From Amoebophrya sp. A120 (taxonomy: Eukaryota > Protista > Dinoflagellata): a DNA stretch of 64,000 nucleotides. The position numbers were made by a program, and so were the translations under genes. The DNA lies in contig CAJINV010000012.1 of assembly GCA_905178155.1 (NCBI GenBank), positions 3,086,802 through 3,150,801 on the forward strand. Reading direction: 5' to 3'. Below the pieces are notes generated by a model. The model was not told where the DNA came from and did no database searches. It was given only the letters and a program-made list of their open reading frames with translations. Shown here in pieces: positions 1 through 64,000 of the stretch. Position 1 is the stretch's first letter. Each line of letters begins with the position of its first letter.

Positions 1-2112
1 ACGTGGAAAATGTGTTTTACTACGGGTACGTCGTCCCCTTCGTCGATTTGGCGGTTTTCGTCGGCGAAGCGAGCTACTTCTGGAGCCTGTACTGGAGCAA
101 AAAATTGGAGGACAGCGCCATCGAGTTCTATGACCAGTCCGTGTCGAATTTCCACCTGTTGGTGAAAAAATCCGAGTTCTGGTTCCGCACGTTCGTCAAG
201 GACCTGTTTTTCGACGAAAAATTTTACCTGAAACTGCTCTTGCAGGACTACTTCAGCACGAAAGAATCTGCTACTTCTCCCGCGAACAAAATACGCGGCG
301 GGGGAGTAGAGGGAAGTAAAACCAATGTCGTGATGAAGAACGGGCACGAGATGGCCAAGCTGTGGATCCAGAAGCACCTGAACCTGGACGTGACCTCGCG
401 GGAGTATTTTTTGCAGGTGAAAAAGGAGGAGGAAATCTTGCAGAAGAAGCTATAACCCGCTCAGGCGTTACAATCTCAAGCGTTACAATAGAATTTGGAA
501 ATCTGTGATGCAAGAAGTGCATAATCCAGGCAGCCAAGTCCGATGTGACTGCGCATGACAAGTTCCGGAGTCCCAAACCGCACTACAATCTGCCGAAATT
601 TGTGTTGCAGAAAGTGGAATGGTCTGCGAGTCTGTCATGCTCACTATGCAAGACAAATTCCAGATTCGATTGTAACGTTTGAGATTGTAATGTTTGAGCA
701 GGTCATAGAAGCAGGAGCAAGAAGAAATCAAGCGGAAACTCGCGGAGGAGCATATCACGAGGAAAAATCCCCCCCTCCCCATATCAAAGGGAAGTTTCTG
801 ATGCTGGATTTGCGTATACAAATCAGGTTTGTCTTGCAGTAGAGGACAGCAGGCTCCTGCCAAGCCTGAGTAGAGAGCTTTTGGCCTAGGCGCTTAGCAT
901 GAGAAACGTCTATGCTGTAGGCCCAACAGCATCACAAACGGCCTGCATAATGCGGCAGAGCCTGCGGAGTTGTCTTCTTGCAGGACAGACGTGATTTGTG
1001 GTCTCAAATCAGCAAGACAAATCTCCGGAAACATACCTTTTCGATGTGGGGAGTGGGGATTTTTCCTCTCAATAGAACAGGTGAAGGAAATGGAACGCGA
1101 GGCCCGGGCCGCCAAGGAAAAAGCGGAAAAGGAGCGGGCCGAGCTGTGCGAGAACAGCTTTATCAAGGGCGAAAACGGGGAAATCTTGCCCAACACGGCG
1201 TGCCACGAGTTTCAGTTCCCGAGTGACGCGGTGGAAGTAGCGGAAAGTATTGCAACGGGAAGCGCAACAAGCATTAACTCAACGGCTGGTGGAAGCACTA
1301 CCGCTGCTTCCACGGGGGAAAACAGCAACAGCACAGCAACGGCTTCTTCAGAAAGAAAGACCGAGGCGTCGTCGTCGTCGACGCAACAGTTGCAACAGGA
1401 TCAAATCATACCCGTCGAGTTGGATGTGCATGCGAAGCGGGCTATCCTGAGGAAAAACGTCCCCACCCCATAGTCAAGATGGGAATCTCGCAACACAAAT
1501 CGAGAAGTTTTGGGAGTCAAGCATGACAAGTTCCTCTCTGTAGTGTAGTGCAGTTTAGCAAGTACAGCCGCAACACATATCCATCTAGTCAGCTTGTTTA
1601 CAGCATTACAAAGTCCAAAACACGATTGGAAATGCCTCGCATGGGGATGCGCATTACAAATCTTCCTGTAACTGCAAATCTGCATGACAAGTATGGGGTG
1701 GGGACGTTTTTACTCAGCATACGGGCCGAGGGCTTTCTGGACACGGATTTCGCAAAATACGACAAGGACCCGTCTGCAGTGGACGGCATTTCGCAGTTGG
1801 AGTGGTATTATAGGAATCCTTGTTTGACATGCACTACAAATCCACTTGATTAAGTATTGTCTTTCCTTTCTTTGCATACAAAATGCCTGGACATGTAGTT
1901 CGAGAATCTTGAGTCTTCCATAGCTCCTCGCTGCCTGTGAAGATGCATAAAATTCAGCAGTGCACAAATGAAAATCCCTCAGGTTCTACTTTCTGTTCAC
2001 CGAGCCCTACAGCCTCCAGGCGCTGTTTTACACCACCACCATGGACAAAGTCTTGGTCTACAGTTCGATTTTGGTCCCCACCTTTCTGTTCTTCAGCTTC
2101 CTGGCCGGGTAA
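1..2112 (+). CDS. Hypothetical membrane-anchored protein, 5' end outside window; 3 introners plus 1 GT-AG intron (1805-1982)
   Basis: Manual splicing gives a continuous frame ...ILQKKQEQEEIKRKLAEEQVKEMER...HAKRAEGFLDTDF...LEWFYFLFTEPY...FFSFLAG, TAA at 2110-2112. Confidence 0.7.
451..707. mobile_element. Introner, family D
   Basis: TIR TATAACCCGCTCAGGCGTTACAATCTC; DR GAAGC/GAAGC. Confidence 0.92.
753..1074. mobile_element. Introner, family C
   Basis: TIR TATCACGAGGAAAAATCCCC; DR GAGCA/GAACA. Confidence 0.9.
1443..1721. mobile_element. Introner, family B
   Basis: TIR TATCCTGAGGAAAAACGTCCCCACCCCA; DR CGGGC. Confidence 0.92.
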
Positions 2113-2921
2113 GAGTCGACGTCTTGTCTGCGTTTGTCAAGAAGCTGATTGAAGATGTACGACAAACTGATAAAAATGGGGAACGAATGCTAGATTTGCA
2201 TGCCGAATGGAATTAGAATGTAAATACAAATTGGAAAATGATGAAGATTCAACCTGTATTGTAAAAAACTACGAGTAATAAGGAACGCGCTCTTCTCATT
2301 CTCTCATGCTGATTTCTTTGATAGTACACCATTTTCAATTCGTCAATCGCGACGACAAAGTCAGCTCTTGATAATTAGTAAAAAATCGCACCACACGACC
2401 GGAGCTACTTACTTCTTTACTGGCACCAACCGAGCTACTGGCACCAACAATGCTGCCGTTTTGTGTTATGATGTTCTGTGTGATGGTCGCTGAAAATTTG
2501 GTATTTCTGAAGGGCATTCCTGGCTGTGGTTTGCACGAGGTGTTGGGTAGTAGTACCACATGGGAGAACAAGCGGTGGTCACAGTCAGCTACTAACTTGG
2601 AAAGGAGCGTGGTGGCAGCGGGTGATGTGGAGTACGTTGTTGTTTGCTTTATAGCAGGGGCAGCAGCGACAAAAAACTCGCTCCTGCGCCGCGCATGGAT
2701 CACAAGAGAGAACAAGAGAGCTGTCAATTCTGATCGAGGTGTAGTACAAGCGCGAGAGAGATGTCTAGATACATGTGCCTACACCTAGTCATAAGGCCAC
2801 CTGTCAAAGTTGTGCAACCACAAACGTTATCCACAATATCATCTTCCTAGCCTCGTCGGTCCGTCTTTCGAAAATTGTATCAAAAGCTCCCTACGACCAC
2901 CATCTTCACATTTTACACAAA

Positions 2922-5776
2922 ATGCCTCCTGCTCCCGAGCGGGTCGAGACCGAAGATGTTTCGCCCCCGATTTCTCCGCAGAGCTCGATTTCCCGCGAAA
3001 TCTCGGGCAGTTTCGGGATTTCGCCCCGTGCGGCTAACGTGTTTCGCCGAAGGGCGACTTTTATGCATGGCAAATATGTCTGGGTCTGAAAGGATGTAAC
3101 TTGTGATGCTGCATTTGGATACTGCAAAAATCTGTACTGCATGAACAGCAAAAGATGCTCAGTTTTTGCCACGGCGAAAGGGCATTTCTCATGCGTTATA
3201 GGCATCAGGAAGGCCTCACAAAATCTGTGATGCTAGAGCATGCATCACAGAAGTCAGGAGTCCTGCAAAATGTGCATGACAAAGCTTGCATCCTTCCAGA
3301 CCCAGACATATTTGCATTCGATAACTTTGATCCACGAGACCCGGGCGCAGAAATCTTGGGTCGATTGGTGCCGGTACAAGGGGCGGGAAAAGATTGAGCG
3401 GTTTTTGGAAAGCGACCGCTACATGCAGACCTTCATGCTGGCCTGCGTGTTTCTTTCCACCGTGACATTCTGCTGGGAAACGATGGAGGACTACCAGGAG
3501 CGGTACAAGCTGTACTGGAAGTCGATGGAATTGTATGAAATGCAAATACTTATTTCTGGGCCTGGAAGATTGCCACGCTCGTCATGCATATTGTGCATGA
3601 CTCATGATGCCTGTAATGCATAACCTGGCATCACAGATTTTGAGAGGGCTTTCTGATGCGTATTCCGCATAAGGAATGCCCTGTCCGCGTAGCACAAAGT
3701 GGACTTCTTTTGCTGTTTATGCAATACACATTTTTTTGGAATCCGAAGGCAGCATCACAAGTTGCAATTTTCCAGACACCGACAACACATTTGCATTTCA
3801 TAAATTGGTTTTCGTCACGATTTTCACGATCGAATACCTCGCGCGGTTGACCGTCACCAGTAAACCCTACAGGGAATTCCTCCTCACCCCGCTGAACATT
3901 TTAGACGTCGTTTCCGTCGTGCCAACCTGGGTGTCATTGCTGGCCGAAGACGGGTATGGATTGCAAAAATGTCTGGGTCTGGAATATTGCAACTTGTCAT
4001 GCTGTCTTTGGATTCCCAAAAAATCTGTATTGCGTGACCAGCAACAGGAGCCCAGTTTGTGTTACGCGGAGAGGGCATTTCTCATGCGGAATAGGCATCA
4101 GGAAGCCCTCTAAAAATCTGTGATGCTAGATCATGCATTACATGCATCATGGACGACACAAAATATGCAACACAAATCTCAGAATCTTCCAGACCCAGAC
4201 ATTTTTGCATTTGATAACGGCTACTGGATCCACGACCAGCGCATCTTCCGGATTATGACCTGCTCAAACGTTACAATCTCAAACGCTACAATAGAGTCTG
4301 GGTTTTGTATTGCATGATGAGCATGACAGACTCGGACAGCATTCCACTTTCTGCAATACAAATTTCGCCAGATTGTAGGGGGGATTGGGGCTCCAGAACT
4401 TGTCATGCGCAATCCTATGAGAGTTGGCTAGATAATGCACTTCCTGCAACACAAATTCCAGACTTTACTGCAACGTTTGAGATTGTAATGCCTGAGCGGG
4501 GTATACGGATTTTCCGGCTCTTCTGGGTGTTCAAGTTCGGAAGACATTCCACCGAAATGAACTACATTGTCACGGGCATGATCGTATCAAATACCACTAT
4601 GTCTGGGTCTGGAAGAGTGCAGACATTTGTGATGCAATTTTTGCGTGACGCAAATCGTTGGGCATGCAAGCCCTAGCATCACAGGTTTATTCGAGCAGGT
4701 ATTCCAATTCCTAATCCGCATGACAAATCCCTCCTCCTGTGACAAGAAGTGGAGCCTTTTGTTGGCCATGCATGACAGATTCTGGCATGATGTAAAATTG
4801 GCATCACAAATTCCATTTTTTCCAGACCCAGACATATTAATTTGCAGTGGATAGATCGAGAGCAGGACGTCCTTCTTGCTGTTGTCCACGTTTCTGGTCT
4901 TGGCACTGGTACGTTGTTGATCGACAAGTTTGAAAGTTTTTTGTCATGCTTGTCGTGCTTGACTTGCATCTTTTATCATGCGGAATTGATATTATCACGC
5001 GCACTATCCACTTCTACCAAGGTTTTCTTCTCCTATCTCATGTTTTCCGTCGAACGAGGCGAGTGGGACGAAGCCCGAGGCTGTTTTGCCCGCGCGGACG
5101 AGCCCCACTACAGCGGTTGCAGTCCCTATGCGGACGTGCCAACCGCGATCTACTGGGCAATAACGACGGTGACGACGGTCGGGTACGGGGATACCTACCC
5201 GATCACCGCTTGGGGCAAGCTGGTAACGGGCGCTTGCATGGTGTGCGGGATTTTCTGTGTCGCCTGTCCAACAACCGTGCTCGGAGTGGAGTTTGGAAGT
5301 ATTTGTGTTGCGCTGTGTGCAATAAAACGGTGTTTTGTCATGCGAATTAACGCAAGAACGACGAAAATTTTGATTTCATTGACAACAGAATTAGCATCAA
5401 ATGATGAAATTTTCACCTCCCAGACCTCTTCAACCTGACGAAGCTGGAAGCCCGGCGCAAGGTTGCGAGAGGGGAGATGGTGAACATGACAAAAGAGGAG
5501 CTGGAGCTGATCGGTCTGTTGAAGAAGCTCGGGAAGGCGCGGGGCAGCATGGAGAAGAAGGTGATGTTGATTCGGCAAATTTTGCAAAAGGATGTCTCGA
5601 CGAGTCAGACGACGTCTTCGCGTAGGAAGGGGAGTTCTGAAATCGACAACCACGCCGCGAAATTACTAAGCAGTGACTCCGCGGAAGTGATGGACCAATA
5701 CGAAGATTTTTTGTGTCGGACTGTGGAGAATGGGAGGATAGAGTCGGCGCTGAGAGTGGCGCTGGATAAGGATTGA
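2922..5776 (+). CDS. Voltage-gated potassium channel (6TM, Kv-like); 5 introners plus GT-AG introns 4909-5021 and 5299-5423
   Basis: Spliced product has S2 ELVFVTIFTIEYLARL, S3 LNILDVVSVVP, S4 RIFRIFRLFWVFKFGRHS and pore YWAITTVTTVGYGDTYP. Confidence 0.95.
3062..3323. mobile_element. Introner, family A
   Basis: TIR TAT..GCAAATATGTCTGGGTCTG; DR ACTTT. Confidence 0.92.
3534..3802. mobile_element. Introner, family A
   Basis: TIR; DR AATTG. Confidence 0.9.
3955..4216. mobile_element. Introner, family A
   Basis: TIR; DR ACGGG/ACGGC. Confidence 0.9.
4254..4505. mobile_element. Introner, family D, inverted relative to 451-707
   Basis: TIR; DR CGGAT. Confidence 0.92.
4585..4853. mobile_element. 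Introner, family A
   Basis: TIR; DR GATCG. Confidence 0.9.
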
Positions 5777-6219
5777 GGTTGGTAGCGGTGGGGTGTTATC
5801 AGTGAAATCCAGGAAATATGCGACGCCCGTCTTTTTATCGTTTTCTTTTCCTCTTGTTTCACCACAAGAACGATCGAGTTTATATCAACTCGAAGGATTT
5901 TGGGATCGCGAGGAGACTAAGGAAGTATTTTCTCATATCGATGACTGGGTCGTATGGGCTCCAGGTCCCACTGATAAGCGTTTTCAAAAGCGTTCAGCAC
6001 ACAGTAGCACTTTGCTACTTTGCAGTGGTAAATTCAATTGCGTTCCATAATGGTAAAAGGTTCGGAAAAGAGTCGCCTGAAACCTTGCGAGCGGTCACTT
6101 CGAGTGAGACTGAGAGGCGCGCTGCCACTGTTGATGGTGATCAAAAGTAAGATGCTTCGTGTCACAATGCGCATTCTATCCCGGCAGGATTCGTCAGTTT
6201 CTCTGTTCTGCGGGATAGA

Positions 6220-7590: not shown

Positions 7591-8084
7591 AAATTCAACG
7601 TCTGAACTTGATCAATTACCTCGCCCCAAAAATGAGGAACGAACGCTGCGCGGATTTGCAGTGCCGGCTTCCATTCGGATTGCGTGAGGCGATGACTGTA
7701 GCACGCCAAGGATTTATGTGCTGCGGAGCGGCTTTCCGTGATTGTGGCGGAATAGGGAATGTGACATTCTACATACGAGAGCGGGCGTATCCGTACACAC
7801 ACATCAAAAATACTTTCTAATTCGATCTATGCAACAGTAGCAACGTTTGAGAAGTATCACTGAAACTAATAGACAACTCATCGAATCATATCATCCTGCC
7901 TCGCTTTTTGCCGGTCCTCATGATGGTGTTGGAGGTCAGTTACTTACGTCGGGGTCAGCAAACATGAGAGGAGGGAGAATGCACTGCTCCTGTGCAAATA
8001 CCTGGGTGTGGTCCAAATAGTTTTAAATCGATACCTGTCACCAGCTGAGAGCACCAGGAGAGCTGAAGCTCCGCGCCAAACAAG

Positions 8085-9791: not shown

Positions 9792-12700
9792 ATGTCCTCC
9801 TGCCTCGCCGCCTGCCGGTCCAGCACGGCGAAATTTTCCCACGGTTTCCACCAAAAACTGTGCACCCAAGCCGTTCTCCGGCCCTGTTTGACCCTCTCGG
9901 TTATCATCTTCACGGTTATTTTCCTGACCACGCTCGCCTTCCTCACGAAAGCCGACTTTCCCGATGAGGATCAGCGATCGAAAGACTCCGTGGACATGTG
10001 GCGGGTCCGGGACAACGAAATTATGCGCACCGAAGACGCGTATTACTCCGCCCTGGGCCACCGAGCGCGGTGGGTTGAGGCAGAATCGCGGTTCGAAACG
10101 GAACAGGAATACATTGACTGGAGGGACAGCAAAATCCGGTACCCGTCTTATCCATTGTAGAAACAACGTCGATCCCCACTCCAATCTTGTCATGCCAAAC
10201 TCGCAGACGCTTCTATCTTTGGTTGCATAGAAGCAGCGCTTACATCTTCTCGACTCTGGGGCGGGGAGAACGACGTGGGTTTTTCCACAGGATTCCATTC
10301 GGCACGACGTGAAAGAACTACTCTTCGGCCCAGCGCCCGTGCAGTCCTCGGAGCTCGGCGGCCGGACGCAGATTTACTATCGGTCGGTGGATCGTAGCCG
10401 CAAGATCTTTACGCCGCAAAATTTGAAGGCGATGTGCCTACTGGAACTATGAAATGCAAAAATGTCTCTGGGTCTGGAAGAATCCGAAATTTGTTATGCT
10501 GTTTTTGCATGACACAGAATGTCTGTCATGGAAGCCCTAGCATCACAGCTTTTTAGAGGCCCTCCTGGTGCCTATTCCGCATGACAAATGCCCTCCACGC
10601 GTAGCACAAACCGGACTCCTCTTGCTGGTCATGCAATACAGAATTTTTTAGAGTGCAAAGTTAGCATCACAAGTTCCAACCTTCCAGACCCAGACATTTT
10701 TGCAATCGATAGGAACGGGTGTGGCACGAGATTGGGAAACTGGGGGACAAAATATGCAGCGCAAGTATAATGTCTGGGTCGGGAAAAAATATTAAAGTGG
10801 AGCTTGTATTGCATGTGTTGCATTTTTAAAAGATCTGTATTGCACAGCCTGCAAATAAGGCTCCGCTTTTGCGGCATACAAAGACGCAGTTTGTCATGCG
10901 TGCTACGCATCAGACTGCGTCAGGTAAACTTGTAATGCTTGGCTGCTGCACTTGAGAGCGCCAGGCTTATTCATACTTTAGCATCACAAGTTTCGTGCAG
11001 GCCCAGACATATGTGCATTTGATACAAAAGTAAATTCTACCAGTCCGGCGCACGGATCTCTCGCATGGTGCAAATCTACGCCGGGAATCTCTTAAATCGG
11101 CCGTTTACGTTTCCGATAACCGATTGCGACGTGACCGCGACCATGTCGCAACAGCAGGTGGACACGATTGTCAACAACGAAATCTACGCGAAGTACAATA
11201 GCGGCGACTACGGGTACGGGTTTTTTCTCGACCGGGATTTTCCAACGAACGGCTACGCCGTGGCGACGCGGTCGGGTTTCTCGGGGTTGGACGGGGAAGA
11301 CGAAATTGGCGGCGAGGGCTTGGACAAGCTGCAAGAATTTCTCGGGGTGGAAGACACCTTTTTCAATCCGAGATTTCTGTACGAGAAATGGTATATTCTG
11401 CCGAACAGCCACGGGCAGGTCGAGGTGCGCATCATGGACCCACTCATGAAAGACGCGGCGGGGCAGGAGCTCGCGCTGGGTCGGGATTTGACGCTCGGAC
11501 TGCCCCTGACTTTCATCGCGGTGTGGGTCGTGGTGTACGTGCACACCGGCTCGCTTTTCTCCGCTTGTCTCGTGCTTCTTTTTGTCCTGTTCGCGATGAT
11601 GGGTGGCTTTATCGGGTACTATCTACTCGCCCGACTGGCTTACTTTGACTCCTTTCTGCAGCTGACGCTGTTCGTGATGCTGGCGGTCGGGGCGGACAAC
11701 TTTTTTGTGATGTGGGAGGCGGTCAAGATTGAAAAAGAGAAAGCGAACGTCGATGGGGAAAAGGAAATGAAAAAGGAGCATGATCTACTTCTTCAAGACC
11801 ACAACTCCTCCCTTATGATCCAAAAGTCGGCGACAGTATTGAACAAGAAGTCCTCGTCTGCTTCATCTTCACCTCAGCACCAGCCACTTCCGAAGGCCAT
11901 TTTGAACACGAAGAGCAGACGAAAAGTTTCGCTCTACCTGGCGCTACTTCGGGCGTCAAAGCGGGCGTCGGCGTCGATGTTTGAGACCAGTTTCACCACC
12001 GCCATGGCGTTTTTTTCCATGGTGATGTCCAAAGTCTCCCCCGTAGCGCACTTCGGGTTTTTCGCGGGCTTTATGATTGTGTCCGGCTACGTGCTAGCCG
12101 TCATCGCCTTTCCGCAGGTCATCGGCCTGTTCTACCTCCGTTTCGAAAAGGGCGGCCGCAGTTTTCCGGAGGTAGAGAACTCTGGTTCCGCGCCGGAGCA
12201 GGAGCAGAACCAAAACAAATTCGGCGCTTCTACTACCGCTGCAGTTTCCGCCTGGGAGGAAGGGGACAAAGACGAGGACAGGAGCCTTGTTGAGACGAGA
12301 AAGCCAGACGCAACACTAGCAGACGCCAGTACAATATCGTACGAAAAAAGTGTTTCACTGTAAGGATTTTGCAAGTTTTGCATCACAAGTTTGTTCTGCA
12401 TGACAGAGAAAATTTGCCATGCGAGATTTCCAAGGGAAAACACCGCTAAAAATCCATTGTCTTGCATGTGTAGCAAGACAAACACTTCTGAGATACATCT
12501 TCTGCATTAAAACAGTTTTTCCTTGCGATATACAACGAAGCCAGACCATGTGGAGGTGGAAGAAACCGTGACCAAGAATCCCGCGCACGAAGTAGCTGTT
12601 ATGTATTGCAAATGTGTCTGGGTCTGGAAAGTCGTGAAGCCTGTATTGCTTGTCTTGGATTTTTCCTGTAAGATCTGTATAATGCATCATGATCAACAAT

Positions 12701-39233: not shown

Positions 39234-39360
39234 TATCCTGTGCAAAAGTGCCGCAGTCGTTTAGCGTGAGAAATAAAGTATATAGTGCTGATGTCCCTTA
39301 CGAAAAAGATTTGTAACGCATGATCGCAATTATACGGGTGCGATGCTCTTGCACAGGATA
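39234..39360. mobile_element. Family E-like element outside any recognised CDS
   Basis: TATCCTGTGCAA...TTGCACAGGATA; DR ACGCC. Confidence 0.85.
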
Positions 39361-48917: not shown

Positions 48918-49179
48918 TATCAAATGTAAAAATGTCTGGGTCTGGAAGAATGCAACCTGTGATGCTGAACTTGGATTCCAAAAAAATCTGTATTGCATGA
49001 GCAGCAAAATGAATGCAATTTTTGCTACGCGGAGAGGGCGTTTGTCATGCGGAATAGGCATCGCGCAACCCTCAAAAAATCTGTGATGCTAGGGCATGCA
49101 TCACAGACATCATGGCCAATGCAAAACATGCATGACAAATCTCAGAATCTTCCAGACCCAGACATTTTTACATTTCATA
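48918..49179. mobile_element. Family A element, apparently intergenic or UTR
   Basis: TIR; DR AATAA. Confidence 0.9.
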
Positions 49180-49919
49180 AATAAACTAACACGTTTATTA
49201 GAGTGCGTGTACAACAGCCACCAAAAGAGTTGCAATGATATGGATGTACGGAGTTGTTGTAAATGAAATGCACGATGATGTCTTTTCCACATCATTTCGG
49301 AATGCTTGAAGATCTACCTCCATGAATTATGAAAATTTTGTCACTTTCTTAAAAAGCTGGACGATGTAATAACGGTGCTATCTTGCTGGTGCTTTGCGTT
49401 TTTGTGATCCAGCGGTAGGCCGCGTCATCCCTGTCTTGGAAAGAGAAGCCGACCTGCTGCTGCCACCATGGTGTCCCCTCCGAAACCCATCGTGCCCACG
49501 GAGCGCTACCAGAAGCTCTTATCGACTGAGGAAAAACTTTTTTCACCGAGTCAAGGAGAGCGGTGAAATAGAAATTTGATTTGCGCCACTGCTTTTCTGA
49601 TGGTTACTGCAAGAAGCGAAGGCCGCCCAAAGGGAAACTGACGCATGACGAATTTTTTCCGAGACAAGGGCACGAGCATGTAGCAATTTTTGACTCTACG
49701 TAAAAGTCATTTTCCTCTCCATACCGGTGCATCTACAACCCGATGGGGCACGTGGATAAGGGCCAACACGCAGAAATTGTGATTCAGGTATAAGAATTTT
49801 TTTTGTTGGACCGATCGCGCAATAAATCACCCGAAGATGCAGACATATTCATTGACCACCATCATGTGTTTAATATTCGAAAGCATCAGGTGCTGAAACA
49901 CACAACAGCTCCGCCACGT

Positions 49920-52900: not shown

Positions 52901-53708
52901 TTCATGGGGCGCAAGACGGAGCCGCCACCGAGCACGCAGGTGGGGGAAGACGGGTCTCCGATAGTAGCACCGCCGCAGGACGACTTCATGACGTCGGTTC
53001 TGGGAGGCATGACCGTCGATCCCAAGCTGTTTCAGTCAGCCACCATGGAGGATTTGGGTATCAACTGCAGAAAACATGTCTGAGTCTGGTTCTGGAACAC
53101 TGGAGGTGAAGATGACTTGCATGAGCCAGAAGTTCTTCCTCTGGCGTGCAACAAATGGCATATATCACACGTTTCATCATCAGCGAGGAGGTTTCTTCTA
53201 AGTGGTTATCCCGCATGAAGTGAAATCCGCCACGTTTTGCTTGCTATGCATGACAGATTTGCGTCTGGTCTAAAACGCGCATCGCAAGTTTGCATCCATC
53301 CAGACCTCCTCCCGGACCACATGTTTGCAATGCATAGGAGGAACAGCAGAGCAAGCGGCAGCGCCTTCCGCCGACGTGAAAAACAAGCCAACTTCCGTGC
53401 GAGTAAGTGCCGCGCCGCCACTGGAAAACGAAACCCCGGCCGCTCCTGCGGGGGTAGCTGCAGAAGGTGCACGAGACGAGGACCTATCTCCCGCTGCTTC
53501 CGGCCTCGCCGTCTCAGATGAGGTGCCGGTCGCGCCCGAACTGCCTACGCCGGCGGATCACCAAGAACATGCGGACGAGACGCAGCCAGCAGCAGATGGA
53601 GGTGCTCAGGAGCAGATCCTTACCAGTGGTCCACCGTCGTCTCCGGCGAAGACGGAAGAGGTCGACTCGCCCGGCGTCGGGGATCATGGCAGTATTGAGG
53701 GCGGCTGA
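49920..53708 (+). CDS. Hypothetical protein with RIIa/DPY-30-like dimerisation-docking motif; 5' end uncertain; 8 introners
   Basis: Spliced ARKKYLEENDDLPVLFDKMFDFLMSKKPITPKSALADFLF resembles a D/D domain (inference); frame continuous to TGA at 53708. Confidence 0.65.
49960..50213. mobile_element. Introner, family A
   Basis: TIR; DR AGCAT/AGCAG. Confidence 0.9.
50254..50558. mobile_element. Introner, family C-like ends with different interior
   Basis: TIR TATTACAATGAAAAATGCCCCC; DR AAAAA. Confidence 0.88.
50626..50902. mobile_element. Introner, family A
   Basis: TIR; DR TGAGA/CGAGA. Confidence 0.88.
51519..51799. mobile_element. Introner, family B
   Basis: TIR; DR GCCCA. Confidence 0.92.
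51844..52064. mobile_element. Introner, family G
   Basis: TIR TATGAGTGTGCACAACTCCCCCTCCCC; DR CGAGC. Confidence 0.92.
52141..52411. mobile_element. Introner, family A
   Basis: TIR; DR CGAAG. Confidence 0.9.
52701..52845. mobile_element. Introner, family E
   Basis: TIR; DR GGATC. Confidence 0.9.
53059..53336. mobile_element. Degenerate family A introner now bounded by GT-AG
   Basis: G-TATCAACTGC...TGCATA-GGAG; DR TTGGG/GGAGG. Confidence 0.75.
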
Positions 53709-54572: not shown

Positions 54573-54941
54573 TATCAAAAGAGCAAAGCTCGCGGAAATA
54601 ACGGGAGGGGCCGCGATAGGGAACTACGTCGTCTCTTTGCCAAGTCAAATTGACCAAGTCAACTTTCTCGTTGCAGGTGAAGTAGGTTTGGTCGTCACGA
54701 GGACACGGCGAGGACATCAAATCGCGGACCATATGGAGAGAAAAAAGTTTGTCACTGTCACTAACTTGCGGGCTTTGCATTACAAATTTTTTTAGCATCA
54801 CAGCTTTCCTCTGTGTTGCAGAAACATTAGGGAAACAAATCCCTAAGGAAGTTTGGCTGTGATGCATTTTTACGCATGACAGAAAGTTTTGTACTGCAAA
54901 AATGCGCATGAGTGATCGTGACGAACTTTTTTTGTTCGATA
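54573..54941. mobile_element. Introner-like element, family I (diverged)
   Basis: TATCAAAAGAGCAAAGCTCG / CGAACTTTTTTTGTTCGATA; internal GCATCACA/GCATGACA motifs; DR GAATC/GACCA. Confidence 0.6.
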
Positions 54942-54948
54942 GACCACT

Positions 54949-57900
54949 ATGCAGCTGCACTACATCGAGGAGGAATGCGGCCAGCAGGTCGAAGTCACCG
55001 AGGAATACCTGCGGCATATCAAAAGGAAAAATCCCCCCACCCCATATCGAAATGGAAATCTGTGATGCGGGATTTGTGTACACAAATCGGCTTTGTATTG
55101 CAGGAAGGCATCGCCGCCAGATCCCCAGGCTATACAGGGGCGTATCGGTCTAGTTGTTCAGCATGGCAAACGGCTCCGCTTTAGGCCCAACAGCATGACA
55201 AATCGCCTCCATAATGGGGGCGAAGCTTTTGCCCTTGTCTTCTTGCAAGACAGACGTGATTTGTGCCCTCAAATCAGCAACACAAATTTTCGGAAGCATG
55301 CCTTTTCGATATGGGGAGGGGGGATTTTTCCTCACAATACGGCACCATTGCGACCAGGAGGATTTAAGTACAACTGCAGTTCTTTCGGCTTTTATACTTA
55401 TGCTGATCATGCATACGCTTACGCATCATCATTGGAACATAATCTAATTCCCTAGCCGAGCATTGCATGACACAACATCTACAACATCTCCCTTAACAGC
55501 CCGGGTGCACAACCTCGAGATCGAAATCGATGCGGAGGAGCAACACGCCGACACGATCGGGGAAAACCTCCCCAACCTCGTCTCCCTGAAGCTGAACGGG
55601 AGCAAGGTATTCTACATTCGGGAGCTGGGCGTGAAATTCCAGAAGGTCCGGTATCTGTGGCTGAACCGGGCCGGGCTGCGGGATTTAGACGGGTTGGTTG
55701 CCGCGCTGCCATTACTGGAGGAGCTCTACGTAGAAACTGCTTTGTCTAGTTGCTTACTTTTGTCATGCGTGTTAACCTCATAGCAGAAATAAAAACTGTC
55801 ATGCTACACCCAGATAATATTGCTATTTGATCGAAGACGAGAATCGAAAAATCTACTATCACGACAGATTTCCTTCAACGAGGTCGAGGAGCTGTCCGGC
55901 CTGCAGTTCCACGAAACCTTGCAAGTTTTGGACCTGGAAGGGAACCAGGTTTCCGACTTGAACGAGCTTGAGAACCTCGCGAGCTGCCCAAAATTGACGG
56001 AACTGACGCTGGAAGACAACCCGATTTGTATCGAGACGGATAATGATTTTCATGATTACATATTGCGTAGCTTTGACGTTCTCGTTGTGAAATAACTTGG
56101 ACCTGTAGAAGGTAGTTGCACTTCTCGACGTATGATGAAGAACGTATGGCAATAAACCTTGTCATTTTATCACCACAAATAACAGATAAGAAGTTCCCGG
56201 ACCTGGCATCGGAAATCAAGCGTGTCGTGCCGCAGCTGGAGACGTTAGATTCCGTATGAGAGTCGTGCACAAGAACTTCACGTCGCCCTCGTTTGGAGGG
56301 CAAGAGTAGCGACAGAAGCGCAAGCAACGATGCAGAGCTCTTTCTAGTAGATGACAAATTTATAATTTTTTACGTAACACTGTCGTGCTGTTCTGGGCGC
56401 TGGTACCTGTCTGTCACGCAAACAGTGCCAAAAGGCATCGGCTGGAATTCCACCGTTTCTGCATTGTGTACAAATGAGGGGGAGACGGGGAAGTAGTTGT
56501 GCACTCTCATACCCCGAGCCGATTGCGGAATCATCTACCTCCGGGGCGATGAACTACGCCGGAACGGCAGCAGCGTCCTCCTCTTCTGCGGCCGGTAAGG
56601 ACCACGGAGCAGCGCAGCATGATTCGAGTCTCAACAAGTCTTCCCGTGCGCCCGTGGATCCGTCTGCTTTGTTGGCCTCCTCCACCACCTTCAACCAAGC
56701 GAGTTCTCCCTCCGAGGAGGTTGGCAGCTGCGACGAAGAGAATGGTATGATGAACAACCCGCTGTTCCGAGCGGACGCCGCAACCCAGAACGACTTGTCA
56801 CGCCTGCGGTCGCGGGCCCGGGCCGGAAGCGGGTCGTCGCGGACGAGTGCGGAGCCTATAATGCCGTTGGAGGAGGGACCGACAAAAAGTAGTTCGTCTA
56901 CTTCAACAGCATCGTCCAACATGATTACGACTCCTGCCACCTCCGCGAGTAAGTATCTGTACACATCATCATCATCAGCAGTACCTGCAACTTCTCTATT
57001 CGCAGGAACGGCAAGAGCCGGCGGAGTTCCTCTCGGGCAGAGCAATAACCACCTGGATCAGACCACCACCTGCGACAACTCCGTGACGGACTACGACAAA
57101 AGCACAATCGAGAACACGGAAGAAGTATCAAACCTGCAAATTCGTGTGGGTCTGAAAAAATGAAACCTGTACAACTGCGTGTCTTACATTCCTGTAAAAT
57201 CTGTACTGCATGACCAAAAGCATCGCGCGCTCTTTTGTCATGCAAAAACGCAGTTCCCAATTCGCGCTACGCATGAGGAAGCGTCCAGAGAGCAATCGTG
57301 TCCTGCTGGGCTGCACTCAGGAGTGTGTTCAATCAACGCCGCCCAGCATGATCACAGGTTTCCAGAGGGCCCAGACATTTTTGCAGTCGATAGGAAGAGA
57401 ACTCCAACTCCTACGGCACGACGACCACGTTCACGAGTGGGGGGACGGCAACTGTATCAATTGAAAACATCATGTCGTGGTCTGGATTGGTGATGCGAAA
57501 TTTGAAGGACAGCGAGGCTTTGTGATGCATGAATGCGATGGGCCATATTTTTTGTCGTGCTGGAAGTGGAAGCCACTTTGTCATGCAAAACGCGGTAGAG
57601 TATGAGTAAGAGTTCTTCGCAATACCAAGCGAAAGATTTGGGATGCGTATAGTACAAAATAATGGTCAAAACATCGCGCTGCAATCCATGCCTCAGCAAC
57701 ACAATTTCGGCGCGTCTCTCCAGACCCAGACATGAGTATTTGCATTCGATAAACCACACTGGTGAACAATAATACTGGTGGAGAACAACCATCAATCGGA
57801 ACAAGCGGGCCAAGCGGGTCGTCTGCACTCGTTTTATCGGGTGGTCCTCACGGTGGTCCGGACGCAGAAGTTTCTGGTGAGCAAAATGTAGGCGGGTCCG

Positions 57901-60019
57901 AACAGCATCAACAAGCCCTGGATCATGTATCCCAGAGAAAAAAGCAGGCAGGTCACATTTGTAATGCAAAAATGTATTACAAATGTCATGTGAGCTGCTT
58001 CCTTTTTTCTGTGTGATATCATGCTGGCATCGGCCAGAACGAACCGGACGAAATATTACAATGAAAAATGCCCCCTCCCCATATCAAAACGGAAATCTGT
58101 GATGCAGATTTGTGGCGACAAATCAGCTTTGTGATGCTAGAAGGCAAAAGATGCGGACTGTAGGGCTGCCTAGCGTGGGAAAGCCTTGCAGCTCCAAGAT
58201 GACAGGAGGCAACTGGAAGTGGGAAACAGCATGACAGATTACCTGCAATTTAGGCCGCAGCTTCGTCACTTGGCCTTCTAGCAATACAAGTCGATTTGTG
58301 TACTCAAATACAGCGTCACAAATTCGCGCATCTTCCGTTTCCGATATGGGTTGGGGGCTTTTTTCACTTTGATACGAAAGGGAGTTGATTGTGGAACAGA
58401 TCAAGCAGACGCGGCAGCATTTCTGGAATAGCTATGCGTTGCAAATATGTCTGGGTCTGGAAGAGTTCGAATTTGTGATGCGAAGTCTACATCATGACAA
58501 AATCTGTCATGCATGGCTAGCAAAAGGCCCCAGTTCTTGTTACCGAAAGAGGGGATTTGCCATGCGGATTAAGCATAATTGGGACACCTGGCCATTAAAA
58601 TCTGTGATGCTAGAGCTTGCATGCCAGACGATCTGGATCAGGCAAAAACTGCATCACAGATCTCACATTCTTCCAGACCCAGACATATTTGCATTTGATA
58701 ACAGCAGGCCGGGAACCAGTAGCTCCTCCCGATCCGGGGGGACTACTAAGAACGGGTTAGTACATCAACTACCGGGAACCTCGCACGGGGCTCCTGCTCT
58801 AGTATCCTCCGTCTTGCCGGTGTCCTACCGCCCGTACACCACCGCGAGCAACCCAGTTTTTGGTGCGGGATCATCTTCGAGCGCTAGTTCTTCGTCCAGT
58901 TCTTACCATCTCCACTCGTACTACCACAGCCGTCCGCCGACGAGCACGTCCAGCTACAGTGCGTCACTTTTGGACCAGCAGGCGAGCAGTATGGAGCAAA
59001 GGACCGGGTTGTCGTCCGCCATGACAAGCTCGACGAGCGCGACCACCTCGGATCTGATATCGTGTTTAAAAACGTCCGCACCCCAGGCGCAAGATGGGAA
59101 ATCTGCTACACAAATCCCCAAGCTTTGGCTGTTGCGCATGACAAGTTCCTTGGGATAATCCTGTCAAGCTTCAGCTAGTTCACCAGCATCACAGACATGA
59201 CAAATTCCTAAACACGAATAGAAACTGCTTTTCATGGGGCTCCGCATTAGAAACCTTTTCAGCATGCAGCTTTGCATTACAAGCATGGGATGGGGACGTT
59301 TTTACATAGGATATCTGACCAGCAATACGGACGACGTGTTTGCGGGGACAAACCCGCTGAAGGCGATCCGGCAGCGGCGGAAGAACTTGGGGATGAAAGA
59401 GCACCACACCGGCTCGGAATCCATACACCACCTGCTGCAGAAATTTCAGAGCTACCTGCAGCCAAGCTGCCTGGGGGAAAGCGAGTTGCAGAAGAGGAAG
59501 AAGGTACGTAGTACTTAGGGTTGTTGCAGATCATGTGGCAGCGCATTAGTTTTGTTGATTTTTATCAGAAGTACCAAGAAAGAGATCACGCACGAGAGGG
59601 CAAAGCCAATCGGTGAAGCCTTAAGGTTGTGCAGTGGTGTATGCAAATTAACTACTTCATATGATAATATAATCGGCGTGAGAGAGTGAAACTGAAAATT
59701 TTGATTCATCAAACCTCCTGAGGCCTTTGAAGAAGCGGGCGGCTTGCGACCGCAGACGGCGGACGTGAGGATAAGTGCGAAGCCGGGTAGTTTGAACAGC
59801 TTCGACGACAATAGTCCAAATCGAAGTGGGATGAAAAGCAGGGGCAGCTCTGGGAACCACTATCAGCCTTCGTTTGTCGGTGGGCCGCAGTCCTCCACTT
59901 CGACCCTCCGCAACAACAAACCCTCGCCGATCAAGGAAAATTCCGCGAATTTGGAGCTGAGTTTGGAAGACCGCCCCACCGCGGTCACCACGCGAGGCGA
60001 AGTTCTTACATTAGACTGA
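54949..60019 (+). CDS. LRRC56: Leucine-rich repeat protein LRRC56/ODA8-like (flagellar dynein arm assembly); 5' end may extend upstream of 54573
   Basis: IGENLPNLVSLKLNGS, IRELG, LWLNRAGLRDLDG, LEELYISFNEV, LQVLDLEGNQVSDL, CPKLTELTLEDNPIC match the LRRC56 pattern as I recall it. Confidence 0.8.
55017..55339. mobile_element. Introner, family C
   Basis: TIR; DR CGGCA. Confidence 0.92.
56255..56511. mobile_element. Introner, family G
   Basis: TIR; DR TTCCG/CCCCG. Confidence 0.85.
57126..57392. mobile_element. Introner, family A
   Basis: TIR; DR AGAAG/GGAAG. Confidence 0.85.
57455..57751. mobile_element. Introner, family A (diverged)
   Basis: TIR; DR AACTG/AACCA. Confidence 0.8.
57928..58018. 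mobile_element. Minimal 91-bp introner, family J-like
   Basis: TATCCCAGAGAAAAAAG / CTTTTTTCTGTGTGATA; DR TCATG. Confidence 0.85.
58054..58374. mobile_element. Introner, family C subfamily
   Basis: TIR; DR CGAAA. Confidence 0.92.
58433..58700. mobile_element. Introner, family A
   Basis: TIR; DR ATAGC/ACAGC. Confidence 0.9.
59058..59313. mobile_element. Introner, family B
   Basis: TIR; DR TCTGA. Confidence 0.88.
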
Positions 60020-61852: not shown

Positions 61853-64000
61853 ATGTCGTCCGCGGACTCGCAGGAGGTCCCTCCCGACGCGTTGAAGTCG
61901 CGGAAAAAGTCCTTTCGCATGATTCTGGACGACCACATCGCAGAGCGGGATTGGGACAGCTTGAGCATTCTTCACGACCTGGCGAAGGAGGACGAAGCGA
62001 CAGGAGACGGAGAAGCGAATGCAGCGACGACCGGAGGTGGCCACGTCGACGACGATTCTCCCATCGCGAAGGCCGCAAACGCGAATCTCGAGCGGCTGCA
62101 GATCCTCGCTGAAACGGCACATCATGCGGAAAGCGGTTCCTCCGGGCCCGGCACGCCGCGCGGGGAGGGGGAGAGCGCGGCCAACAAGAAGGGCCGTAGC
62201 GTCGAGGTGATATCTTCCTCCGAAGACGAAAGGGAGGAGCGAGAAGAAATGAACTCGAATATCCTGAACAAAAACGTCCCCACCCCAGAGTTGCCATGCA
62301 GATTTGCAATCGCAGGAGCACTCGTAATGCGCATCCCCATGAGAGGCATTTTTCAGTCGTGTTGTGGCATTTGTCATGCTGTAAACACGATAGCGAGATG
62401 GATTTGTGATGCGGCTATCATTGCTAACCTGAACCCCAATACAGCGCAATACCTGTCATGCGTGAGGCCCAAAACTTTTGGATTTGTGTTGCAGACTTCC
62501 CATCTTGACCACGGGGTGGGGACGTTTTTACGCAGGATATCGCAGCTGAAATCGAACGCGCAGGCCCTCCACAACTTGCAGGAAGAGCTGGAGGAGCAGC
62601 TGCAGCAACACAAAGGGAAAGAAGATGGCGAAAATTATTTGTCCACGTCTCTGAACAAGCAGGCGCGGGAAGAGCTGGCGCACACGAGAAGAGACCAGTC
62701 GCTCATTGCTGGGCGGAAGGGGGAGATCGCGGCCGACCCAGCCGAGCTGATGTTTTTGATAGAAAGACGGTTCAAACGCGCCGTTCCCCTAGCAGCGGAT
62801 AGTGAATTGAAGCAGTTTCCGGTCATAGAGAAGATCATGAACACGCGGGAATGGATTTTGCAAACCCGGAAATTCGAGCGACTGGAAGCGGAGTACGCAA
62901 AATTGAGGCAGCCGTCCGCAAAACTCCAGTTTCTGAAATTACAGCGGGCGAAAGCGTATACTTTGTTTCAGTACAACGTTTTATTTGGGATTATATTTTG
63001 TCAAAAAGTAGTAGACATTGCGTGGAGGTGTTCCTGCATGACTGAAGACGGCACAATTTCGAATACAGTAGATGACGGTAAGTAGAAAATGACAATTTCA
63101 AAGGGAAGATAAAGCAAAATTGTCAGGCTTCGCAAACTCGAGAAACACTGCGACATCTACACCCGGTGCACGATGGCCGAGGGACAGGGGTACAAAGAAG
63201 TGCTTTCGCACTTGATACCATTAGCAGAGTCCAAGCCAGAAGCCAGGAAAATTCTCGAGAGGCAGCAATACATCCGCGCGGAGGCTGCGGTACATTATAC
63301 CATTTTGCGTTTTAGTTCCTATCATGCGCGATTCATTATCCATCATCATTCTTTTATTTTGTCATGCGCGAAAAGTCGCATAATGTGCATCTGTACTATA
63401 ATCCGATCCCACAGCGAATCCGCGAGGTATCCTTTGCAAAAGTAAGTATCGTACTTACTCGTATTGCAATCATGCATTGCAGTTCTTTTTCTCGAGGTAA
63501 ATCCGCATTACAAATTTTGTTTTTCATGCTTAATGCATTCATACGAGTAGGAAAACGATGCTTTTGCATTTCATAAGAGGAGCAGCCGCACAATTTGTAC
63601 GCGACGTTGCGGCAAATCTACCCCGTGGAAGATTGGGTGTTACGCGCGATCATGTCCTCTATTCAGAAGGAGGTGGAGTGGAACCGGGTGGCGGAACTTA
63701 TCCTGTGCAAAAGTATCACACTCGTATAAATGCAAGTCTTGCATTAGAAACAAGGTCCGAGCACGGGGGCTGGGGCCCCCGTGCAGAGACCTTGCATCTT
63801 TGGAGGGCATTGGGCGGTCGGAGCAGTTTCCGAGGCCGGGCGGGCTTGCTCCTCGCGACATTCGAACGCAACCACAACGGGGACGCGCGTCGCGAAGTAG
63901 AGGAATGGCCAGTGCCGCGCCATCCCCAGCGGGCTACCACATAGGGCGCCCCGATGGGCGCCCGAGGGGTGGCGCGTTCGCTTCCACTTGCAGGACTCCG
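61853..64000 (+). CDS. Hypothetical coiled-coil protein, continues beyond window
   Basis: ORF 61853-63085 (includes one read-through introner) plus downstream exons YKEVLSHLIPLAESKPEARKILERQQYIRAEAA and QKEVEWNRVAEL. Confidence 0.65.
62260..62539. mobile_element. Introner, family B
   Basis: TIR; DR TCGAA/TCGCA. Confidence 0.9.
63428..63575. mobile_element. Introner, family E
   Basis: TIR; DR CGAGG/AGAGG. Confidence 0.85.
63699..64000. mobile_element. Left end of a long family E element, running off the window
   Basis: Starts TATCCTGTGCAAAAGTATCACACTCGTAT; no right TIR within 300 bp; shares AAACAAGGTCCGAGCACGGGG with about 31110-31130. Confidence 0.75.

What the first reader, a model, noticed from the sequence alone, without database searches (positions are those of the whole stretch)
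451..64000. About 80 TIR transposon-introns with TAT...ATA ends and 5-bp duplications, removed without GT-AG
Seen: about 9 families with different TIRs nearly all start TAT (a few TAC/TAG/TAA) and end ATA, flanked by a 5-bp DR with no obvious consensus. At the coding junctions I spliced, deleting element+5 nt restores conserved motifs (K+ channel S2/S4, the GGCT LTFDLPG motif, the ubiquilin UBL). Most copies cannot give GT...AG in any register. Known: Amoebophrya has non-canonical introner elements with inverted and direct repeats, and to my knowledge their excision machinery and mobiliser are unresolved. Inference: introns are defined by the paired TIR stem rather than by splice dinucleotides, implying an unusual splicing mode alongside ordinary GT-AG introns in the same genes.
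Basis: partly seen in the sequence, partly recalled or inferred. Interest (0 to 1): 0.9.

Follow-up and report, generated by a model that had tools for sequence, protein, structure and literature searches.

The report
Transposon introns cut at fixed offset
About 80 small transposons sit inside the genes of the algal parasite Amoebophrya and are missing from its transcripts although most lack normal intron ends; this is a published phenomenon, but the cut likely always falls one base before and four bases after the element, which narrows how they are removed.

Summary
Observation confirmed; phenomenon already published. The window is Amoebophrya sp. A120 DNA. I curated 82 elements (41% of the window): 78 start TAT, 78 end ATA, 56 have an exact 5-bp repeat, and only 5 can give GT-AG in any register. 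Removing element+5 opens 11 gene models. Transcript contigs skip exactly element+5 at 16 of 16 visible junctions; 14 more fit by length. These are the introner elements of Farhat et al. 2021.

Not found in the papers I read: imperfect repeats fix the cut. The intron is N-TAT...ATA-NNNN (exact at one junction, bracketed at others), so it starts N-T-A like the window's 18 canonical GTA donors. All families share an inward-pointing 9-mer array. One element is nested in another, and two pairs leave zero-length exons.

Best mechanism (inferred, about 0.5): the host spliceosome with relaxed G/AG rules, ends held together by the hairpin. A non-spliceosomal, euglenid-like route remains open (0.3). No transposase was found. 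The scan noted similar hairpin-bounded introns in two other dinoflagellate genomes (unchecked).

The parts
451..707 (+). element, DR GAAGC exact
   Evidence: RNA joint skips 262
753..1074 (+). element, DR GAGCA/GAACA; register 3-5
   Evidence: RNA joint skips 327
1443..1721 (+). element, DR CGGGC
   Evidence: RNA joint skips 284
3062..3323 (+). element in K+ channel gene, DR ACTTT
   Evidence: adjacent contig pieces, skip 267
3534..3802 (+). element in K+ channel gene, DR AATTG
   Evidence: adjacent contig pieces, skip 274
3955..4216 (+). element, DR ACGGG/ACGGC; register 4 or less
   Evidence: piece ends at 3949; length sum
4254..4505 (+). element, DR CGGAT
   Evidence: length sum
4585..4853 (+). 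element, DR GATCG
   Evidence: length sum
10149..10294 (+). old element in Patched-like gene, DR CGTCT/CCATT; register 4-5
   Evidence: piece ends at 10147; length sum; P0001 residue
10448..10711 (+). element, DR GGAAC
   Evidence: length sum
10753..11024 (+). element, DR CAAAA
   Evidence: length sum
12335..12530 (+). element, DR TACAA
   Evidence: ORF
12600..12874 (+). element, DR GCTGT
   Evidence: ORF
13137..13394 (+). element, DR CTGTT
   Evidence: ORF
13564..13825 (+). element, DR GCTAG/GCTAC; register 5 would make a stop codon
13941..14214 (+). element, DR TGGTT
   Evidence: ORF
14257..14518 (+). element of the main family, DR ACTTC
14828..15091 (+). element ending AGA, DR GGGGG
15144..15408 (+). 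element, DR CGCCC
15483..15751 (+). element, DR TACCC
16487..16765 (+). element, DR AGTCG/AGGCG; register 3-5
   Evidence: piece ends at 16484
17001..17315 (+). element, DR TTTTG
17354..17610 (+). element, DR TGCCC
18661..20401 (.). 1,741-bp intergenic TAT...ATA element, DR GAAAG; no Pfam hit in three ORFs
20854..21134 (+). element in the gene with the LTFDLPG motif, DR GAAAA/CAAAA
   Evidence: ORF
21183..21478 (+). element, DR CTGCG/CTGAG
21510..21816 (+). old element, DR ATCTT/AGAAT
21940..22201 (+). element, DR ACTTC
22258..22605 (+). element, DR GTTGA
22644..22865 (+). element ending ATG, DR CGAGC
22926..23246 (+). element starting TAC; 5 nt from the next element (zero-length exon at register 4)
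23252..23512 (+). element, DR CTGAT
23628..23912 (+). element, DR TTTCT
24241..24475 (+). element starting TAC, DR GCGCC
24964..25229 (+). old element, DR TGCTG/TTTAT; least secure call (short gene model, no homolog checked)
25295..25587 (+). element, DR AGACC/ATACC
25717..26038 (+). element ending AGA, DR GGAGG; GT-AG at register 4
30847..32713 (+). 1,867-bp element swollen by a 96-bp tandem array, DR GAATG
32784..33046 (+). element, DR CCTGG
33090..33439 (+). element starting TAG, DR TGGGC
33590..33846 (+). element, DR ATTGC/ACTGC
34357..34649 (+). element, DR CTCGG
34691..34877 (+). element, DR GAGGT/CAGTT; 5 nt from the next element (zero-length exon); GT-AG only at register 3
34883..36499 (+). 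element carrying a 1.36-kb insertion, DR CAGTT
36556..37204 (+). outer element starting TAA, DR CTGGA/CGTGA; its 3' TIR is split by the next element
36923..37174 (+). element nested in the 3' TIR of 36556-37204, DR GTGGG
37343..37594 (+). element, DR AAACC
37981..38241 (+). element, DR TCCTC
38301..38621 (+). element, DR ATTTT
39234..39360 (.). element outside the gene models, DR ACGCC
41361..41681 (+). element in ubiquilin UBL, DR GGGGA
42428..42690 (+). element, DR CCAGG; GT-AG at register 4
42784..43124 (+). old element, DR TGCAG/CAAAG
43142..43395 (+). element, DR TGCAG
43546..43871 (+). element, DR CAATC
46174..46425 (+). element, DR AGACG
46520..46826 (+). old element, DR CAGTG/CGCGA; joint not among the rows shown
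46931..47187 (+). element, DR AGATG
47239..47500 (+). element, DR GAAAG
47566..47718 (+). element, DR ATTGG
47820..48079 (+). element, DR CCTGC
48918..49179 (+). element in untranslated sequence between two ORFs, DR AATAA
   Evidence: length sum 1,184 nt
49520..49723 (+). old element, DR GCTCT/CCGGT; register 4-5
   Evidence: RNA joint skips 209
49960..50213 (+). element, DR AGCAT/AGCAG
   Evidence: length sum
50254..50558 (+). element, DR AAAAA
   Evidence: length sum
50626..50902 (+). element, DR TGAGA/CGAGA
   Evidence: length sum
51519..51799 (+). element, DR GCCCA
   Evidence: length sum
51844..52064 (+). element, DR CGAGC
   Evidence: length sum
52141..52411 (+). element, DR CGAAG
   Evidence: length sum
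52701..52845 (+). element, DR GGATC
   Evidence: length sum
53059..53336 (+). old element, DR TTGGG/GGAGG; GT-AG at register 4
   Evidence: RNA joint skips 283
54732..54941 (+). element just upstream of the LRR gene's ATG, DR GACCA
   Evidence: RNA joint skips 215
55017..55339 (+). element, DR CGGCA
   Evidence: RNA joint skips 328
56255..56511 (+). element, DR TTCCG/CCCCG; register 2-5
   Evidence: RNA joint skips 262
57126..57392 (+). element, DR AGAAG/GGAAG
   Evidence: RNA joint skips 272
57455..57751 (+). element, DR AACTG/AACCA; the only junction that fixes the register exactly (intron 57454-57755, GT...CC)
   Evidence: RNA joint 57453 to 57756, no ambiguity, four runs
57928..58018 (+). 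shortest element (91 bp), DR TCATG
   Evidence: RNA joint skips 96
58054..58374 (+). element, DR CGAAA
   Evidence: RNA joint skips 326
58433..58700 (+). element, DR ATAGC/ACAGC; register 2-5
   Evidence: RNA joint skips 273
59058..59313 (+). element, DR TCTGA
   Evidence: RNA joint skips 261
62260..62539 (+). element, DR TCGAA/TCGCA
63428..63575 (+). element, DR CGAGG/AGAGG; GT-AG at register 4

Best explanation
These are non-coding inverted-repeat transposons of Amoebophrya A120 that sit in exons between 5-base repeats and are absent from spliced transcripts, and they are likely removed by the host's own spliceosome, which would read the element's TAT end as a relaxed GTA donor and would take the acceptor four bases past a predicted end-to-end hairpin. 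Step 1, insertion (inferred from anatomy): one unidentified transposase recognises the shared TAT-N7-AAA end and an array of inward-pointing 9-mers, inserts in either orientation with no target preference, and duplicates 5 bp. Step 2, removal (shown at 16 junctions): the transcript loses element+5 nt, which restores the original coding sequence whatever the length or phase. Step 3, register (exact at one junction, bracketed at others, assumed general): the cut lies 1 nt before TAT and 4 nt after ATA, so the intron is N-TAT...ATA-NNNN. Step 4, chemistry (inferred): +2 T and +3 A match the canonical GTA donors, so a spliceosome that no longer needs +1 G or the 3' AG is the simplest catalyst, with the hairpin standing in for intron-end pairing. 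Odds: steps 1-2 and identity 0.97; fixed register 0.8; spliceosome as catalyst about 0.55.
For: Identity: an exon is 100% identical to a protein named Amoebophrya sp. A120; the 1,365-aa protein spliced at register 4 equals it at every residue, while other registers differ (that annotation is transcript-based, so not independent). RNA: 14 joints and 2 pairs of adjacent pieces all skip element+5; 14 more elements fit three exact length sums. Register: exactly 4 at 57455; 4 or more at 49520 and 10149; 4 or less at 3955 (piece end) and 13564 (register 5 gives a stop); every other visible junction allows 4. Donor likeness: 82 of 82 have T+2/A+3 at register 4; 18 of 18 canonical introns begin GTA. 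Farhat Table S4 lists only NT- starts as predominant in A120 and TT- in A25, whose repeats begin TTA: both fit N-T-A (my inference). That paper finds nearly all spliceosomal proteins and all snRNAs but U1 in A120. The three elements with the weakest predicted end pairing (24964, 42784, 53059) all have G at +1 (post hoc, n=3).
Against: No preference for G at +1 (30 of 82; one search tested 29 of 81 against 30% G in exons, p=0.16) or for AG at the 3' end (9 of 81, p=0.09); the same in 183 oriented metagenome copies (59 against 55 antisense equivalents; AG 16 against 11). Drift of +1 towards G in imperfect repeats is not significant (14 against 7, p=0.19). No branch-point or pyrimidine-tract signal was apparent by eye, and copies work in both orientations (21 and 12 in the main family). 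The hairpin would hide the donor bases that a spliceosome must pair with (established knowledge, recalled). T+2/A+3 is also simply the transposon end, so the match to GTA may be chance. U1 was not found in this strain. Only one junction fixes the register exactly; all contig runs come from one study and two samples, and their RNA status is the tool's guess.
Confidence: 0.5

Rival explanations
1. A separate, structure-guided pathway (endonuclease plus ligase, or a specialised second spliceosome) cuts 1 nt before and 4 nt after the terminal stem, as proposed for euglenid nonconventional introns.
For: Ends are free at +1, -1 and -2; either orientation works; ends are predicted to pair in 73 of 78 elements against a median of 0.075 for canonical introns; fixed asymmetric overhangs suit a ruler enzyme; euglenid introns of similar geometry are released as circles (review PMC11282704, passages); U1 not found.
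Against: The cut falls exactly where N-T-A mimics GTA, apparently in both A120 and A25; the outermost pairs are only about half-formed in predictions (0.5-0.6); elements with little predicted end pairing are still needed for the ORF or are seen removed (42784, 53059). No such enzyme has been identified.
Confidence: 0.3
2. The spliceosome removes them, but ends are defined by proteins bound to the 9-mer array or the TIR sequence, not by RNA pairing.
For: The 9-mer occurs in 76 of 82 elements (10.5 per kb against 0.06 in exons) and also in 5 of 18 canonical introns; the first copy usually lies 31-44 nt from either end.
Against: Inward-pointing subterminal arrays are what a transposase-binding site looks like (established knowledge), which explains them without a splicing role; the motif was derived from these same elements.
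Confidence: 0.12
3. The joints are reverse-transcriptase jumps across strong hairpins at short direct repeats, not real splicing.
For: Hairpin plus direct repeat is the classic setting for template switching (recalled); the RNA runs also hold element sequence (depth over elements).
Against: Of the first 80 elements, 54 would shift the frame if retained, and 15 must all go to give the 1,365-aa protein that aligns with its A25 orthologue. At 57455 the joint lies one base outside the shared letters, where a jump would not land.
Confidence: 0.02
4. The elements are cut out of the DNA in part of the life cycle, like ciliate internal eliminated sequences.
For: TA at both ends and TIRs recall such systems (recalled).
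Against: Contigs of run X7, which behaves as DNA, run from exons into elements at single-copy depth (20-31), and one runs unbroken through two canonical introns and element 10149. None of its listed joints is an element+5 skip, though 529 joints were not shown.
Confidence: 0.02

Closest known systems
Introner elements (IEs) of Amoebophrya sp. A120 (Farhat et al. 2021, PMC7789003)
   Same: Same organism; repeats starting TAT + 7 nt + at least three A; 3-5-nt direct repeats (5 bp in their Fig. S19 legend); about 240-265 nt; RNA-validated non-canonical ends; hairpin model; mixed with GT-AG introns; no mobilising transposase found.
   Different: They call the splice sites variable relative to the hairpin and the border unknown (Fig. 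3 legend) and found no family-specific repeat motifs. Here the repeat is strictly 5 bp, the register appears fixed (1 nt before, 4 nt after), the start reads N-T-A like canonical donors, and a 9-mer array is shared across families. I could not see their figures, where the logos may show part of this.
A120 introner families in Gozashti et al. 2025 (PMC12130899)
   Same: Most of the 22 table rows that I saw are classed as TIR DNA transposons of unknown superfamily, 100-350 bp, with mostly non-canonical ends.
   Different: Their automated calls give duplications of 2-5 bp and inconsistent carry/co-opt assignments; no single register. Their family 38 has integrase-like ORFs, which no element here has.
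Euglenid nonconventional introns (review PMC11282704, passages)
   Same: MITE-like origin, terminal pairing, repeats at junctions, no GT-AG, coexist with spliceosomal introns, unknown machinery.
   Different: Conserved CAG/CTG at +4..6 and -8..-6 and pyrimidine|purine junctions there; TAT/ATA at +2..4 and -7..-5 and free junction bases here. Circular products shown there, untested here.
Fritillaria non-canonical introns and Aureococcus/Micromonas introners (passages in PMC11282704, PMC7789003)
   Same: Transposon-derived introns; Fritillaria shows that a spliceosome can be retuned to other ends.
   Different: Those keep specific end dinucleotides; here +1, -2 and -1 are free.

Membership tests
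Amoebophrya A120 introner elements | Host is Amoebophrya sp. A120 | tested here: met
   100% identity to a protein named A120; 56% to A25; full 1,365 aa equal
Amoebophrya A120 introner elements | Inverted repeat starts TAT, seven variable bases, then three or more A | tested here: met
   position counts at both ends against section 11 of PMC7789003
Amoebophrya A120 introner elements | 3-5-nt direct repeat over the exon/intron borders | tested here: met
   5 bp: 56 of 82 exact; 231 of 302 in flank-blind loci
Amoebophrya A120 introner elements | Removed from transcripts with non-GT-AG ends | tested here: met
   16 of 16 visible junctions skip element+5; 15 of them cannot be GT-AG
Amoebophrya A120 introner elements | Repeated in families; predicted hairpin | tested here: met
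   clusters of 33, 9, 9, 4, 2, 2; end pairing predicted in 73 of 78
Non-autonomous TIR DNA transposon (MITE) | TIRs, fixed-length target duplication, no coding capacity, dispersed copies in both orientations | tested here: met
Non-autonomous TIR DNA transposon (MITE) | A cognate transposase-coding element; assignment to a superfamily | tested here: inconclusive
   no transposase or integrase domain in 20 window ORFs or the 50 longest ORFs of 634 kb of loci; whole genome not held
U2 spliceosomal intron | GT...AG ends | tested here: not met
   5 of 82 in any register, 4 of 82 at register 4
U2 spliceosomal intron | Donor T at +2 and local donor consensus (GTA) | tested here: met
   82 of 82 N-T-A at register 4; 18 of 18 canonical GTA
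U2 spliceosomal intron | Branch point and lariat product; dependence on snRNPs | not testable with these tools
   contigs only; the one raw-read run laid gave 4 partial reads
Euglenid nonconventional intron | CAG at +4..6, CTG at -8..-6, pyrimidine|purine junctions | tested here: not met
   ends are TAT/ATA with free junction bases; definition
Euglenid nonconventional intron | Released as full-length circular RNA | not testable with these tools
   needs intron RNA sequencing
Programmed DNA elimination (IES-like) | Absent from somatic DNA | tested here: not met
   run X7 keeps the elements at single-copy depth; joint table truncated

The most novel reading that the evidence does not exclude
Amoebophrya A120 runs a ruler-type splicing reaction that needs no G at the donor and no AG at the acceptor: it cuts one base before and four bases after a transposon's terminal stem, in either orientation, even through nested elements and zero-length exons, by a non-spliceosomal enzyme or a second, remodelled spliceosome. 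One transposase with a shared 9-mer binding array would have seeded tens of thousands of such introns.
Probability: 0.35. Interest if true: 0.8.

Novelty: already known. Interest (0 to 1): 0.4.

Why it matters
The elements are in print, but how they are spliced and what moves them are still open there. A fixed register turns a list of seemingly random splice sites into one rule (N-TA...ATA-NNNN). That lets A120 genes be annotated without RNA, tells where to place lariat or circle primers, and points to which spliceosomal contacts (+1 G, -1 G, U1) must be relaxed if the spliceosome is the catalyst. The shared end and 9-mer array give a query for the missing transposase. A reaction that erases any such insertion without a trace would also explain how a transposon can fill 40% of a gene-dense region.

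Tried and rejected
No whole genome was held and the metagenome assembly could not be searched by handle, so no genome-wide tally or transposase search was possible. TIR pattern in viral contigs: 0 matches. Autonomous partner: a 4.2-kb candidate in L057 is two separate elements around an exon; three other long candidates (L049, L066, L047) were not opened; no transposase domain in 70 ORFs. Selection for GT or AG at insertion: not found. Drift of +1 to G: looked strong in a small set but was not significant in the larger one. A 5'/3' asymmetry of TIR conservation: none in 183 oriented copies. Rfam: no match. Putting the DNA-like run X7 into crowded RNA joints out of the table (529 not shown); one search hid 19. 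So 18 of the 48 elements in the laid stretches have no visible row, and 34 of 82 lie outside them. Several gene rows were in the wrong frame and were redone; only the Patched-like, K+ channel and other in-frame rows are used. Roy et al. 2023 was not held; its preprint appeared in a listing and I did not read it.

Full report
What is there. I read the whole window and scanned it three ways, then curated by reading frame. There are 82 elements between 451 and 63575, covering 26,126 bp (41%); the median length of the first 80 is 264.5 bp. Starts are TAT 78, TAC 2, TAG 1, TAA 1; ends are ATA 78, AGA 2, ATT 1, ATG 1. Both ends share TAT-[C/G]-N4-G-N-AAA. The flanking 5-mers are identical in 56 of 82 and differ at one place in 15. 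An ungapped scan gave 78 pairs (21 from a tandem array) against 1-3 in three shuffles. Defined without looking at flanks, 29 of 37 window elements and 231 of 302 elements from a metagenome assembly have an exact repeat at k=5 and almost none at k=3, 4 or 6-10. The target has no consensus. The first 80 cluster as 33, 9, 9, 4, 2, 2 and 21 singletons, with both orientations in each cluster.

They behave as introns. Removing element+5 from 78 elements, plus 18 GT-AG introns, opens 11 gene models: a K+ channel (425 aa), a Patched-like protein (1,365 aa, 15 elements and no canonical intron), the gene with the LTFDLPG motif, a methyltransferase-like gene, ubiquilin and others. Pfam supports the channel, Patched and ubiquitin labels; the GGCT, FkbM-like and LRR labels are recalled from motifs. 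The 129-aa model at 24.8-26.1 kb is weak. Only 5 of 82 can be GT-AG in any register.

Transcript evidence. Contigs of runs X1-X4 (one study, two samples; RNA status is the tool's guess, but the same contigs also lack the GT-AG introns) were laid on 1-18000 and 46000-59600, which hold 48 elements. Fourteen joints and two pairs of adjacent pieces are visible, and all 16 skip exactly element+5. Fourteen more elements fit three length sums exactly (160, 179 and 1,184 nt). No visible element joint of the RNA runs disagrees. Eighteen have no visible row because the tables were cut; 34 lie outside the laid stretches. Run X7 behaves as DNA and keeps the elements. The RNA runs also contain element sequence, so efficiency cannot be judged.

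Identity. An exon of the Patched-like gene is 100% identical to a 1,365-aa protein labelled Amoebophrya sp. A120, and 56% identical to the A25 orthologue. Farhat et al. 2021 (PMC7789003; I read the abstract, sections 10, 11, 12 and 16, search passages, supplement legends and part 3 of the supplement, but no figures) describe A120 introner elements with repeats starting TAT, seven variable bases and at least three A, direct repeats of 3-5 nt, RNA validation, a hairpin model, no U1 found and no transposase in A120. That is this finding.

What the imperfect repeats add. Where the two 5-mers differ, the transcript shows how many bases (r) of the upstream copy stay in the exon. At 57455 (AACTG/AACCA) the joint is 57453 to 57756 with no ambiguity in all four runs: r=4. 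At 49520 (joint) and 10149 (piece end) r is 4 or 5; at 3955 (piece end) r is at most 4; at 13564 r=5 would create a stop codon; the rest allow 4. Only r=4 reproduces the public protein at every residue (transcript-based annotation, so not independent). The intron is therefore N-TAT...ATA-NNNN. At this register all 82 have T+2 and A+3, and all 18 canonical introns of the window begin GTA. Farhat's Table S4 lists only NT- starts as predominant in A120 and TT- starts in A25, whose repeats begin TTA; both fit N-T-A (my inference). Their Fig. 3 legend calls the sites variable and the border unknown. The 22 of 118 Amoebophrya rows that I saw in the Gozashti 2025 family table (PMC12130899; passages and supplement file 8) give duplications of 2-5 bp and no single register. 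Six searches showed no paper that resolves the mechanism; subscription papers such as Roy et al. 2023 were not readable, and figures may show more than the text.

Results against a plain spliceosomal reading. G at +1 and AG at the 3' end are not enriched, in the window (29 and 9 of 81; p=0.16 and 0.09) or in 183 oriented metagenome copies (orientation method 23 of 23 correct on window elements that it could call). Drift of +1 towards G is 14 against 7, p=0.19. Ends are predicted to pair in 73 of 78 elements up to 420 bp (median 0.77, canonical introns 0.075; 72 of 78 fold with z below -2 on 8 shuffles each), though the outermost pairs average only 0.5-0.6; the one element folded with the dedicated tool, with flanks, gave z=-1.4.

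Transposon side. A 9-mer, [T/C]TGT-N-[A/T]TGC, occurs 273 times in elements (76 of 82; 10.5 per kb), once in 16 kb of exons, 3 times in 18.6 kb of other DNA and 8 times in canonical introns (5 of 18). Forward copies lie towards the 5' end and reverse copies towards the 3' end, mostly starting 31-44 nt in (motif chosen from these elements). With the shared end this suggests one mobiliser for all families (inference). The exact TIR pattern hits 145 loci, all from one metagenome assembly, with copies up to 96% identical to window elements, and none in viral contigs. In L054 an element end abuts 54 bases identical to window 16040-16093, where the window has no element; that element's other flank belongs to another gene, so the contig is probably misjoined and this is half-evidence of a polymorphic insertion. 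No transposase was found.

Hard cases that the pathway must handle (from reading frames only, not RNA): element 36923 lies inside the 3' TIR of element 36556; the pairs 22926/23252 and 34691/34883 are 5 nt apart, leaving zero-length exons at r=4; two elements are swollen to 1.6-1.9 kb.

Other papers seen: PMC11282704 (passages) for euglenid and tunicate introns; the K. veneficum parasite preprint 10.1101/2024.09.05.611473 (passages), which reports canonical introns and U1 in that strain; PMC11453091 and PMC12787238 (passages), nothing further on mechanism.

Verdict. Real, RNA-supported and already known as the A120 introners. The fixed register, the N-T-A donor likeness and the shared 9-mer array are additions that make the open mechanism easier to test; the register rests on one exact junction and four bracketing ones. 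I favour a relaxed host spliceosome helped by the hairpin (about 0.5) over a separate structure-guided pathway (0.3). Interest 0.4.

Noticed in passing
window 35031-36403: A 1.36-kb insertion inside element 34883, flanked by an exact 18-bp direct repeat and ending in short ACT repeats; looks like a 5'-truncated non-LTR retroelement (recalled features). It holds a charged coiled-coil-like ORF with no solid Pfam hit.
   Followed up: partly
window 31401-32572: A 96-bp tandem array (7.7 copies) and GGGGTGTGTC repeats inside element 30847; a fragment of the 451-type element begins at 31028.
   Followed up: partly
window 18661-20401: Largest clean TAT...ATA element, intergenic, with its own repeated subterminal motif and no listed match in the fetched loci; may be a deletion derivative of an autonomous element.
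   Followed up: partly
window 6151-7590 and 8067-9443: Two intronless paralogous ORFs (479 and 458 aa stop to stop) free of elements, each with a weak MepB-like hit below the cut-off; covered by X2 contigs.
   Followed up: partly
window 4909-5021, 5299-5423, 41730-41833, 55730-55867, 63290-63414: Five of 18 canonical GT-AG introns contain the element 9-mer; they may be decayed elements, or the motif may have a splicing role.
   Followed up: partly
metagenome loci L001-L145: The middle base of the 5-bp repeat mismatches less often than the others (7 against 19-27, p=0.02) in 80 imperfect copies; not seen in the window's 26. Unexplained.
   Followed up: partly
window 41301 and 63699: Orphan element ends: a right end just upstream of the ubiquilin ATG with no left end found, and a left end at 63699 that runs into other sequence near the window's edge.
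   Followed up: no
window 39117-40390: A palindromic stretch at 39976-40213 between GGGGG repeats, and a roughly 40-bp imperfect direct repeat near 39120 and 40350.
   Followed up: no
window 48080-53721: One X4 contig runs from the ORF ending at 48284 through to the ORF ending at 53708, with the element in the untranslated gap removed; a contig does not show a single transcript.
   Followed up: no
whole window: All 11 gene models lie on the + strand, in line with the one-way gene clusters reported for Amoebophrya.
   Followed up: no
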